Shown: piece after piece, positions 40,701-43,700 of the stretch
How positions within the stretch are numbered: position 1 is the first letter of the stretch
Layout of the letters: every line of letters starts with the position of its first letter
Assembly: GCF_009914755.1 (NCBI RefSeq)
Contig: NC_060940.1
Strand: one strand, 5' to 3'
Length of the DNA stretch: 64,000 nucleotides
Origin: the human T2T-CHM13v2.0 reference genome, Homo sapiens
Program-made: the position numbers and the translations under genes
Notes under the pieces: generated by a model
What the model was told of the DNA's origin: nothing
The model's database searches: none
Seen by the model: only the letters and a program-made list of their open reading frames with translations

Positions 40701-43700
40701 TGAGACGCAGTGCAGTTCTGCCCTTCACCTTCCGGCAGTTTGTCACCTCGTCCCTATGACCTCAGAGGAACTTTGTCTCAGGCCAATTGTTTGTTCCTTG
40801 GCCTCTTTCATTTCCCCTAAAAATCATTTGCTGCCCCTCTAAATGGCCTACATCTCCATCTATCTCCCTCTCCCCTCAGAAGAGGGTGCTCTTTAAGCAT
40901 CAACCATCCGGCCCTTCTAGCAGTCTCATTTTTCAGCTGGTTCCCATGTTTATGCCTGTTCTATGTTTTTCTTTTCCTGTTAAGCTGTCTGTTGTCAGCT
41001 CATTTCTGCAGTGAATCTTCAGAGAGGAGATTGGAAGCTTTCCTTCCACCCATACGATAGAACTATAAAGCAGAAGAGTTTAGAAAGAATTTCCTATTTA
41101 AGTGACGAAACCTCATACTCCATTTGTGATAAATAGCACAAAGGCTAAAAAAACTTATTTTTGACCAAAAGCTCTGTTGACATTCTATTAAACAAACACC
41201 GACCTATTTAATTTTCATAATGTAAATGGCAGACATTTTCATAATTCTTATGCTAATAAATCATTTCCCTGATTTTTTGGGTAAAACCACATATTCATAA
41301 TGAAGTCCAGAAACGTGAATTGTTTTATATAATTTATTCTTATTTGTGATTACAAGTATACCTCTACAGAAAGTTAGTATACTCACACAAAGGCAACTTG
41401 TGCAGAAGAGAATGTTAAATGTGTAACGTCTCAGAAACCCAATAATGATAATTATCAAATTATCCAATTTTTGTGGAGATGGGGTTTTGCCATGTTGGCC
41501 AGGGTGGTCTCGAACTCCTACACCAAAGTCAGTCTCACGATGACGATAGACAGCCAGACTATTGATAACCTGGAATAATAATAGTTGAAATAATGAAAAG
41601 GTCAATGACACCGACAATATTTCACTCAGAAAGAATCATCCTTAGAAACCGTCAACCTCCTCCAAAAGGTAACCACATCCCTCAGATATCACCGTGGGAT
41701 TCCACTGCTACAAAAAAGAACAGAAGTTAGAAGTCTCATGTTTTTCAGATGGCTGGTAGTGTTTTTAGGCATTGCAAATGTGGGGTGTTGTCTTTCTTGG
41801 TATAAAGCAGGGATATCCAATCTTTTCACTTCCCTGCCTATATTAAAAGAAACAAAGTTGTCTTGAGCCACACATAACATACACTAACACTAACAATAGC
41901 TGATGATCTAAAAAAAAACTCTTTTTTTTTTTTTTTTGGAGACAGAGTTCCGCTCCACTCAGTCGCCCAGGCTGGAGTGCAGTGGTGCAATCTCGGCTCA
42001 CTGCAACCTCCAGCTCCTGGGCTCAAGCCATTCTCCTCCCTCAGCCTCCCGAGTAGCTGAGATTACAGGTCTCTGCCACCATGCCTGACTCATTTTTGTA
42101 TTTTTAGTAGAGATGAGGTTTCACCATGTTGGCCAGTCTGGCCTTGAACTCCTGGCAGGCGATCTACCTGCCTCGGCCTCCCAAAGTGCTGGGATTACAG
42201 GTGTGAGCCACCGTGCCCAGCCATTTTTTTTTGTTTTTGTTTTCGTTTGGTGTTTTGTTTTTGAGATGGGGTCTCACTCTGTCACCCAGGCTGGAGTGCA
42301 GTGGCGTGCTCTCGGCTCACTGCAACCTCGGCCTCTCAGGTTCAAGTGATTCTCCTGCCTCAGCCTCCTGAGTAGCTGGGAGTACAGGTGCCTGACAATG
42401 CACTCAGCAAATTTTTGTATTTTTTGTGGAGATGGGGTTTTGCCATGTTGGCCAGGGTGGTCTCGAACTCCTGACCTCAGGTAATCTGCCCGCCTCAGCC
42501 TCCCAAAGTGCTGGGATTACAGGCATGAGCCACTGTACCTGGCCAAAATCTCCTAATGTTTTAAGAAAGTTTACAAATTTGTGTTGAACTGCATTCAAAA
42601 CTGTCCTGGGCCACATGCAGCCCGTCACTCATGGCTAAGACAAGCTAAGTATAAAGTAATTATCTTTTCTTTTTGTTTGGAGACAAAGTCTTGCTCTGTC
42701 ACCCAGGCTAGATTGCAGTGGCATGATCTCAGCTCACTGCAACCTCCGCCTCCCGGGTTCAAGCGATTCTCCTGCCTCAGCTACTGAGTAACTGGGATTA
42801 CAGGCGCCTGCCACCGCACTCGGCTAATTTTTGTATTTTGAGTAGAAACAGGGTTTCACCATCTTGGCCAGGCTGGTCTCCAACTCGTGACCTCTTGATC
42901 CACCTGCCTCGGCCTCCCAAAGTGCTGGGAATACAGGTGTGAGCCACTGCACCTGGCCAGTAGTTATCTTTTCTTTAAAGTTATTTACTTGTTTTTTAAA
43001 TTGATGTATAACATTGGATGCATTTATTATATATCACATGGTAAAAGAATCCCTCTAAATAATACTTCTCTCTTGGATTATATGAATCTTTGTCATTTGA
43101 AGCTCAGCATAAGTAAAAAAAAAAAATACAATGAAGAGATTACTTCATTCACAAATAAGTATCAAATTTTAGTGCTTAAAAATTAACAAGGTGGGCCGGG
43201 TGTGGTGGCTCACGCCTGCAATCTCAGCACTTTGGGAAGCCGAGGTGGGTGGACCACGAGATCAGGAGATTGAGACCATCCTAGCTAACACGGTGAAACC
43301 CATCTCTACTAAAATTACAAAAAATTAGCAGGGCATGGTGGCACGTGCCTACAGTTCCAGCTACTTGGGAGGCTGAGGCAGAAGAATCACTTGAACCCAG
43401 GAGGCAGAGGTTGCAGTGAGCCGAGATCGCACCACTGCACTTCAGCCTGGGTGACAGAGCGAGACTCTGTCTCAAAAAAAAAAAAAATTACCAAGGTGGA
43501 GATCATGAAAATGGCATGAATAGTGTGGGATTTCTCTAAGATTGTTGATATTAATTCCATTAGACTCTTATGTGAGTGAAGACGAAGACTTCCCCTGAGT
43601 AAGTTCAGACAGCTTGTGATAACATTTCTACGTCGATTCCTCAGGATTTAACTATATATTCTTGAAAACATCTCAATTTTAAATGTTTCTTTCAAGATGG

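What the first reader, a model, noticed from the sequence alone, without database searches (positions are those of the whole stretch)
41468..42472. Coding Alu piece in exon 2 is an exact 52-bp copy of a specific Alu 950 bp away
Seen: 41468-41519 and 42421-42472 are identical over 52 nt (TTTTTGTGGAGATGGGGTTTTGCCATGTTGGCCAGGGTGGTCTCGAACTCCT), including non-consensus positions GTGGAG, GTTTTGCC and CAGGGTGG. The exonic copy has no poly(A) and no TSD and encodes [17 protein letters not shown] just before the hydrophobic LIIIIIGFL stretch. The exon is 183 nt versus 129 nt recalled for NPIPA. Inference: new protein sequence arose by local templated insertion (template switch or polymerase-theta-like repair), not by retrotransposition or splice-site exonisation.
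Basis: partly seen in the sequence, partly recalled or inferred. Interest (0 to 1): 0.8.

Follow-up and report, generated by a model that had tools for sequence, protein, structure and literature searches.

The report
Intronic Alu piece copied into exon
A 52-base piece of an Alu repeat in the neighbouring intron was copied into a coding exon of one subgroup of human NPIPB genes by repair-type DNA copying rather than by retrotransposition, adding about 20 new amino acids; the inserted Alu piece was already in print, but its local source apparently was not.

Summary
Window 41468-41519 and 42421-42472 are identical over 52 nt. In the whole assembly the exact 52-mer occurs 23 times, and all 23 lie in chr16 copies of the NPIP duplicon.

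Of 28 duplicon copies, 8 carry the 183-nt exon with the Alu piece and 20 carry a 129-nt exon without it. All 28 carry the intronic Alu. Two distant paralogs also lack the piece. On a tree built from the flanks, the 8 carriers form one 100/100 group. The piece is therefore one derived event, and the Alu is older than the insertion.

Compared with the closest empty allele (chr16:75.80 Mb), the event removed 7 bp and added 52-53 templated nt. It also includes an adjacent 8-bp tandem duplication that restores the reading frame. The net change is +54 nt.

There is no poly(A), no flanking target-site duplication and no new splice site. This fits repair-mediated capture of proximal DNA (Pace et al. 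2009, PMC2671141). The sub-mechanism is unresolved.

The Alu-derived exon-2 insertion is already published, with a junction peptide (PMC6924539). My searches found no paper naming the donor Alu 953 bp away. I rate this a modest novelty: a new member of a known kind.

The parts
41387..41569 (-). NPIPB7 second coding exon, 183 nt; the acceptor exon
   Evidence: Listed in the hub's gene table. The AG and GT splice signals are read directly from the sequence. The frame is open. The whole annotated CDS gives 414 aa with no internal stop. The exon is 183 nt in 8 of 28 duplicon copies and 129 nt in the other 20.
41468..41519 (-). Exonic Alu-derived 52-mer (the copy), in Alu sense orientation relative to the gene; it supplies the third base of a Val codon and then encodes [17 protein letters not shown]
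   Evidence: Exactly identical to 42421-42472. Present and invariant in all 8 carrier copies. Absent from 20 copies and from 2 outgroup paralogs.
41520..41520 (-). Junction base. It is A here (a 1-nt filler). In the carrier copy at chr16:28.63 Mb it is G, as in the donor Alu, which makes the match 53 nt there
   Evidence: Seen in the alignment of the 30 fetched loci (28 duplicon copies and 2 outgroup paralogs): 7 of 8 carriers have A and L028 has G. The donor has G at 42473.
41452..41467 (-). 8-bp tandem duplication next to the insert: TTATCAAA at 41452-41459 and TTATCCAA at 41460-41467 on the + strand, with one mismatch between them. The empty allele has a single TTATCCAA. The duplication restores the reading frame
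   Evidence: Without one of the 8-mers the exon would be 175 nt and the frame would stop at codon 71. The 16-mer occurs nowhere else in the window at 2 mismatches or fewer.
42421..42472 (-). Donor 52-mer inside the intronic Alu, about positions 73-124 of the element (end of the left arm into the A-rich linker)
   Evidence: The state of the 52-mer at the homologous Alu in the 28 duplicon copies is: exact in 15, one mismatch in 11, two mismatches in 2.
42223..42544 (-). Donor Alu element with its A-rich tail (T-rich 42223-42262 on the + strand). It lies in the intron upstream of the exon, in the same orientation as the gene
   Evidence: Boundaries read from the sequence. Present in all 28 duplicon copies; not found in the distant paralogs L052 and L053.

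Best explanation
In the common ancestor of the NPIPB6-10/B15-type copies, exon 2 of one NPIP duplicon was broken, or a replication fork stalled there. During repair 7 bp (GGACTTC on the + strand) were lost. A free 3' end then copied 52-53 nt from the Alu lying 953 bp upstream in the preceding intron, in the same orientation. The ends were rejoined with 0-1 nt of filler and an adjacent 8-bp tandem duplication. The net change is +54 nt, which is in frame.

At the protein level GGSPW became [23 protein letters not shown], directly before the hydrophobic IIIII stretch. The new allele then spread with later duplications of the segment to 8 loci in this assembly.

Shown here:
- the donor-copy relationship;
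- the polarity (insertion);
- the single origin;
- the breakpoint anatomy;
- frame preservation.

Inferred:
- that a double-strand break or stalled fork started the event;
- that the template was the copy in cis;
- that all parts arose in one event.

For: 1. The identity is exact over 52 nt. The exact 52-mer occurs only in NPIP duplicon copies, 23 of 23 genome hits. Unrelated Alus come no closer than 1 mismatch (2 sites).
2. Eight loci have the pair about 953 bp apart. Seven NPIPA-type loci have only the intronic copy.
3. The exon is 183 nt in 8 of 28 copies and 129 nt in 20 of 28. It is 132 and 133 nt, without the piece, in the distant paralogs L052 and L053.
4. The carriers form one side of a 100/100 branch on a tree built with the exon columns removed.
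5. The closest empty allele, L032, shares the flanking exon states. It fixes the breakpoints as a 7-bp deletion, 52-53 nt templated, and an 8-bp duplication.
6. There is no poly(A), no flanking duplication, and the splice sites are unchanged.
7. The carrier clade is young: 0.5-0.7% flank divergence inside it, with a stem of 0.0051. About 0.2-0.5 changes are therefore expected in 52 nt, so exact identity needs no special explanation.
8. The class is documented. From PMC2671141, abstract and sections 6-7: 824 human cases had the donor under 5 kb away, all 39 inspected lacked poly(A), and deletions of 1-15 nt and fillers of 1-68 nt were typical. That pipeline looked only at insertions into transposable elements and dropped cases inside segmental duplications, so it could not have found this one.
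9. The piece is translated. The junction peptide ETDFGVGVR is listed for NPIPB6 in the supplement of PMC6924539.
Against: - No ape or monkey genome could be searched. Polarity and age rest on human paralogs only.
- The junctions show 0-1 nt of microhomology, whereas 31 of the 39 proximal cases in PMC2671141 had 2-9 nt (Table 1).
- Fifteen present-day duplicon copies carry the exact 52-mer, so a paralogous copy cannot be excluded as the template. Nor can the sense-strand pre-mRNA, which contains the Alu.
- The 8-bp duplication carries one mismatch and could be a separate, later event.
- Dating is unsettled. The flanks differ by 1.75-1.9% from L032 and show gene-conversion mosaics. A preprint dates the clade that includes B14 to about 2.6 million years (10.1101/2025.02.04.636496, passages read).
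Confidence: 0.8

Rival explanations
1. Same templated capture, but the template was not the cis DNA copy. It was instead the same Alu in a paralogous duplicon or sister chromatid, or the NPIPB pre-mRNA or a cDNA of it, since the Alu lies in sense orientation in the intron (an RNA-templated patch, as proposed for class 2 templated sequence insertions).
For: The exact 52-mer is present in the intronic Alu of 15 of 28 copies, so the sequence cannot tell these sources apart. Copy and donor have the same orientation as the transcript. According to the abstract of PMC5110952, class 2 insertions are patches at double-strand breaks.
Against: In PMC2671141, proximity (under 5 kb) is the strong statistical rule for poly(A)-less captures. 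A donor 953 bp away in cis is the simplest reading.
Confidence: 0.15
2. Two steps rather than one. A capture event (+53 nt, -7 nt, net +46 nt, a frameshift) first made a broken copy. A later 8-bp tandem duplication then restored the frame.
For: Without one 8-mer, the frame stops at codon 71. The two 8-mers differ at one base, which could mean different ages. Spare copies in a multicopy family can drift while broken.
Against: No intermediate allele exists among the 28 copies. Short duplications and fillers are common by-products of single repair events (Table 1 of PMC2671141). The one mismatch is a Trp-to-Leu replacement in an exon that evolves 6-10 times faster than its flanks.
Confidence: 0.2
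3. An Alu retrotransposed into the exon and was later trimmed to 52 nt.
For: The piece ends in 5 A's. [quoted passage not shown]
Against: The 5 A's belong to the internal linker and are present in the donor as well. There is no tail and no flanking duplication. The piece is an internal fragment (about positions 73-124). It is identical, including three rare states, to the old neighbouring Alu, while no unrelated Alu in the genome matches exactly.
Confidence: 0.03
4. The 183-nt form is ancestral and the piece was deleted elsewhere. Alternatively, an older exonic Alu piece was later overwritten by gene conversion from the intronic Alu.
For: Gene conversion is frequent in this family: L027 versus L043 shows 0 differences in 400 sites at 42500-42899, and the preprint says the same.
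Against: Twenty of 28 copies, plus the two paralogs at about 75% identity, lack the piece with the same boundaries. The carriers are a single young clade. The empty alleles hold GGACTTC at the site instead of any Alu remnant.
Confidence: 0.03

Closest known systems
[quoted passage not shown]
   Same: An insertion of 50 bp or more, copied from a donor under 5 kb away on the same chromosome. No poly(A). A small target deletion and filler at the junctions. An empty site is seen in related sequence.
   Different: The acceptor here is a coding exon inside a segmental duplication, which their pipeline excluded. The donated sequence is part of an Alu and becomes translated protein. Microhomology is minimal (0-1 nt). 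The insert sits at the very bottom of their size range.
Alu-derived coding sequence by exonisation or by Alu insertion into exons (survey: Martinez-Gomez et al. 2019, PMC6924539)
   Same: [quoted passage not shown] That paper lists this very insertion for NPIPB6/7/8/9/15, with a supporting peptide.
   Different: No Alu splice site is used, and the Alu piece is sense-oriented and internal to a pre-existing exon. No retrotransposition hallmarks are present. In the passages and supplement I read, the paper names no source.
Class 2 templated sequence insertion polymorphisms (Onozawa and Aplan 2016, PMC5110952; abstract read)
   Same: A patch of templated sequence at a presumed double-strand break, without a target-site duplication or poly(A).
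   Different: Those patches come from distant regions and are thought to pass through RNA. Here the donor is 953 bp away.
Polymerase-theta end joining and FoSTeS/MMBIR template switching
   Same: Templated insertion with local duplication and a small deletion. Several template switches are possible.
   Different: As I recall, theta-type inserts are usually shorter and copied from within tens of bases of the break, and FoSTeS/MMBIR junctions usually show 2-5 nt of microhomology. Neither pattern is seen here.

Membership tests
Repair-mediated duplication (proximal capture, PMC2671141) | Inserted segment of at least 50 bp with an identifiable parental copy | tested here: met
   52-53 nt. The only exact genomic matches are the homologous intronic Alu of the duplicon.
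Repair-mediated duplication (proximal capture, PMC2671141) | Donor within 5 kb on the same chromosome | tested here: met
   953 bp start to start in all 8 carrier loci, range 952-959. Cis versus paralogous template cannot be told apart.
Repair-mediated duplication (proximal capture, PMC2671141) | No poly(A) tail; breakpoints show a deletion, filler or microhomology | tested here: met
   7-bp deletion, 0-1 nt filler and an adjacent 8-bp duplication. Microhomology is only 0-1 nt.
Repair-mediated duplication (proximal capture, PMC2671141) | Empty orthologous site in related species | not testable with these tools
   No primate genomes are held. Empty paralogous sites were found in 20 of 28 copies and in 2 distant paralogs.
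Alu retrotransposition (target-primed reverse transcription) | 3' poly(A) tail, flanking target-site duplications, 3'-complete element | tested here: not met
   The piece is an internal fragment (about positions 73-124). The 5 A's are shared with the donor's linker. The only duplication is tandem, on one side of the insert.
Alu exonisation | An exon boundary created by a splice site inside the Alu | tested here: not met
   The AG and GT signals are the same as in the 129-nt exon of the non-carrier copies. The Alu piece lies 50 nt and 81 nt from the exon ends.
FoSTeS/MMBIR or polymerase-theta templated insertion | Microhomology at each switch; for theta, a short insert copied from the immediate flank (features recalled) | tested here: inconclusive
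   0-1 nt of microhomology at the Alu junctions and a possible TT at the 8-bp slip. The insert is 52 nt, copied from 953 bp away.
NPIP gene family (Pfam PF06409) | Match to the NPIP domain model | tested here: met
   The exon at 37364-37557 matches PF06409 with E 1.2e-15, 58.3 bits against a cut-off of 27.5. Exon 2 alone gives no match.

The most novel reading that the evidence does not exclude
A single error-prone repair event within the last few million years, possibly on the human lineage only, turned 52 nt of an intronic Alu into a translated segment of about 21 residues. The segment lies between the signal-peptide-like start and the first hydrophobic stretch of the NPIPB6-10/B15 proteins, which are testis-enriched and positively selected. 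The new segment contributed to their divergent localisation or topology. If so, repair capture would be a third route, beside exonisation and retrotransposition, by which Alu sequence becomes functional protein.
Probability: 0.15. Interest if true: 0.65.

Novelty: new member of a known kind. Interest (0 to 1): 0.4.

Why it matters
NPIP is one of the fastest-evolving gene families of humans and African apes, and exon 2 is a focus of that change. This finding gives a base-level mechanism for one of its larger protein changes. About 20 residues of the B6-10/B15 proteins came from the gene's own intronic Alu through a repair-type copy.

It also shows that surveys of 'Alu insertions in coding exons' can mix retrotransposition with local repair capture. 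Earlier genome-wide screens for repair-mediated duplications were blind to exons and to segmental duplications.

The practical weight is modest. The insertion itself and its translation were already reported, and no function is shown for the new segment.

Tried and rejected
1. I looked for a second template for the sequence beside the insert. The 16-mer at 41452-41467 occurs nowhere else in the window at 2 mismatches or fewer, so it is best read as a local 8-bp duplication. A four-switch model that also takes AAATT from the Alu differs from the simple model by one base and cannot be tested.

2. [quoted passage not shown] It is not: those exons show no length difference between NPIPA-type and NPIPB-type copies, 549-551 nt matched in 27 copies. 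The phrase may refer to the present insertion under another exon numbering. I could not tell from the text.

3. I asked whether the Alu-derived parts of the last coding exon are also local copies. They are not: the best matches in the window are 70-80% identical.

4. The hit at chr16:68.99 Mb, which has 2 mismatches and carries all three rare states, is an unrelated Alu. Only 261 nt align, at 88.5%, and the flanks do not align.

5. Dating from the 3.5-kb flanks is confounded by gene-conversion mosaics. I give only a rough bracket.

7. Pfam on the exon-2 peptide alone gave no family.

8. Literature searches found no paper that names the donor:
- NPIPB + Alu + 'templated insertion': 0 papers.
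- NPIPB6 + Alu + exon: 3 papers, of which only PMC6924539 is relevant.
Johnson et al. 2001 (recalled) is not in the library and was not read. Supplementary figures of the bioRxiv preprints are closed and may show exon-2 alignments.

Full report
**Observation.**
Window 41468-41519 and 42421-42472 are identical over 52 nt on the same strand. The match ends sharply at both sides. The window holds 97 Alu-like sites within Hamming distance 20 of this 52-mer. Two are at distance 0 (this pair) and the next best are at distance 6.

In the whole assembly the exact 52-mer occurs 23 times, all on chr16. Eight loci carry a pair 952-959 bp apart, at 28.63, 28.75 (this window), 28.93, 29.04, 29.32, 80.20, 80.31 and 80.43 Mb. 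Seven loci carry a single copy, at 14.75-18.38 Mb.

Allowing mismatches gives 13 sites at one mismatch (11 in NPIP duplicon copies, 2 unrelated on chr11 and chr12). There are 46 sites at two mismatches (2 in duplicon copies) and 868 sites at three or fewer. The tool warns that counts for repeats are lower bounds.

The rare shared states are TTTTTGT, GTGGAG and CAGGGTGG. The hit at chr16:68.99 Mb that carries all three, plus two other changes, is an unrelated Alu.

**Who has what.**
A search with the exon and its unique flanks found 28 duplicon copies (L024-L051). It also found distant paralogs at 74-79% identity on chr16:20.54 Mb, chr11, chr10 (two) and chrX.
- The exon is 183 nt in 8 of the 28 copies and 129 nt in the other 20.
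- It is 132 nt in L052 and 133 nt in L053, without any Alu piece.
- All 28 copies have the intronic Alu. Its 52-mer is exact in 15, has one mismatch in 11 and two mismatches in 2. L052 and L053 show no such Alu.
- The single copies in the NPIPA-type loci are the intronic Alu, not an exonic piece.

So the Alu, already in its present 52-nt state, predates the exonic copy.

**Single origin and polarity.**
I built an IQ-TREE tree of the 28 copies on about 3.5 kb of flanks, with the exon columns removed. It puts the 8 carriers on one side of a 100/100 branch. The stem length is 0.0051 and the depth inside the clade is about 0.003. With 20 duplicon copies and two distant paralogs empty, the 183-nt form is derived.

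Flank divergence is 0.5-0.7% between the two carrier subgroups and 1.45-2.2% between carriers and non-carriers. Since the insertion, about 0.2-0.5 changes are expected in 52 nt. Perfect identity therefore needs neither selection nor conversion.

Calibrated crudely on a human-chimpanzee divergence of about 1.2% (recalled), the event falls between roughly 9 and 3 million years ago. The flanks show conversion mosaics, for example 0 differences in 400 sites between L027 and L043 at 42500-42899, so this bracket is soft.

A preprint (10.1101/2025.02.04.636496, passages read) dates the clade that uses the MRLR start (B6-10, B14, B15) to about 2.6 million years and calls it human-specific. If that holds and L032 is B14, the insertion would be human-specific. 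The identification of L032 as B14 is my inference from its position and is not verified.

**Breakpoints.**
The closest empty exon is L032 (chr16:75.80 Mb). It shares the flanking derived states with the carriers and differs from them at 15 of 129 exon sites. NPIPA-type exons differ at 24 of 129 and B3-type exons at 31-34 of 129.

On the + strand the empty allele reads GATAA TTATCCAA GGACTTC CACCAAAG. The carrier allele reads GATAA TTATCAAA TTATCCAA [52-mer] A CACCAAAG. The components of the event are:
- a 7-bp deletion;
- 52 nt copied from the Alu;
- one junction base, which is A in 7 of 8 carriers. In the 28.63-Mb copy it is G, as in the Alu, giving a 53-nt match there;
- an 8-bp tandem duplication with one mismatch.

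The net change is +54 nt.

Microhomology at the two Alu junctions is 0-1 nt. The capture and deletion alone would add 46 nt and shift the frame. Without one 8-mer the reading frame stops at codon 71. The 8-bp duplication is therefore what keeps the protein open. The mismatch between the two 8-mers is a Trp-to-Leu replacement.

**What it is not.**
- Not retrotransposition. The piece is an internal fragment of the Alu (about positions 73-124). Its terminal 5 A's are the donor's own linker. No duplication flanks it.
- Not exonisation. The splice signals are those of the 129-nt exon, and the piece lies inside the exon in Alu sense orientation.
- Not a pattern shared with the other Alu-derived parts of this gene. 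The last-exon Alu segment has only 70-80% matches in the window.

**Mechanism.**
The anatomy matches the class described by Pace et al. 2009 (PMC2671141; abstract and sections 6-7 read).
- They found 824 human insertions of 50-619 bp with the donor under 5 kb away.
- None of the 39 inspected had poly(A).
- Junctions showed deletions of 1-15 nt, fillers of 1-68 nt and short duplications.
- They attributed these events to synthesis-dependent strand annealing after a double-strand break.

Their screen used interrupted transposable elements as acceptors and discarded cases in segmental duplications, so this event lay outside it.

I commit to a templated repair capture of the intronic Alu (confidence 0.8). 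The following remain open:
- the exact pathway: strand annealing after a break, replicative template switching, or polymerase-theta joining;
- whether the template was the cis copy, a paralogous copy or the pre-mRNA;
- whether the 8-bp duplication arose in the same event.

**Consequence.**
The annotated coding sequence is open, 414 aa. Its start, [15 protein letters not shown]..., is hydrophobic and is called a signal peptide in the preprint. The exon-4 peptide matches Pfam NPIP.

The event replaces GGSPW by [23 protein letters not shown], directly before the IIIIIGFL stretch.

Two pieces of outside evidence bear on function:
- The junction peptide ETDFGVGVR is listed for NPIPB6 in the supplement of PMC6924539. 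The text of that paper says all three Alu regions of NPIPB6 have peptide support, in testis.
- An unreviewed preprint (10.1101/116087, section 7 read) reports that two NPIPB constructs localise differently, one nuclear and one cytoplasmic. The constructs differ in exon 2 and in the C-terminal region, so the effect cannot be assigned to exon 2.

**What is known.**
[quoted passage not shown] This may be the same feature under another exon numbering, because the exons at 37364-37771 show no length change.

I found no paper that names the neighbouring intronic Alu as the source or that assigns the event to repair capture. Closed supplements and Johnson et al. 2001 (recalled, not read) could hold it.

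**Verdict.**
The finding is a new, well-resolved member of a known kind of mutation, in an already reported insertion. Interest is moderate (0.4).

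Noticed in passing
window 41387-41569 compared with flanks; loci L024-L051: Exon 2 differs between duplicon subfamilies 6-10 times more than the surrounding intron: 15-34 of 129 exon sites against about 1.5-2.2% in the flanks. This agrees with the published rapid evolution of this exon. None of the differences among the 8 carriers fall in the Alu piece (4 of 183 sites differ, all outside it).
   Followed up: partly
G000 chr16:20.54 Mb (L052), chr11:3.39 Mb (L053), chr10:80.38 and 81.11 Mb, chr7:56.8 and 65.6 Mb, chrX:50.38 Mb: There are distant paralogs (73-87% identity) of the NPIP exon 2-4 region, including intron sequence, outside the duplicon family. 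The exon-2 equivalents of L052 and L053 contain stop codons. I used them only as outgroups and did not establish what they are.
   Followed up: no
L038 and L039 (G000 chr16:15.115 and 15.120 Mb): Two copies of the exon-2 region lie 4.4 kb apart and sit on long branches in the tree. This fits the 'tandem duplication of exon 2' reported for the PKD1P6-NPIPP1 locus in PMC7419210.
   Followed up: no
window 42500-43299 compared with L043 (G000 chr16:29.68 Mb): There are 0 differences in 400 sites and 3 in the next 400, against 9-14 per 400 nearby. This looks like a gene-conversion tract between a carrier-type and a non-carrier-type copy, and it blurs dating from the flanks.
   Followed up: partly
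L028 (G000 chr16:28.63 Mb, inside NPIPB6 by the hub table), base homologous to window 41520: This copy has G where the other 7 carriers have A. That extends the match to the donor Alu to 53 nt and changes the junction codon from Val to Ala. The published NPIPB6 peptide ETDFGVGVR has Val, so the site seems to vary between assemblies or copies.
   Followed up: no
window 41320-41572: The hub's gene table places an exon of a CLN3 RefSeq transcript (NM_001286109.2) across NPIPB7 exon 2, including the Alu piece. It reaches 67 nt past the donor site and 3 nt past the acceptor. I did not examine this.
   Followed up: no
G000 chr16:80.20, 80.31 and 80.43 Mb (L029-L031): Three near-identical carrier copies (0.09-0.14% apart in the flanks) are spaced about 114 kb apart, which suggests a very recent local triplication in this assembly.
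   Followed up: no
window 31063-31207: The Alu-derived end of the last coding exon has only 70-80% identity to any Alu in the window. Unlike the exon-2 piece, it is not a recent local copy.
   Followed up: partly
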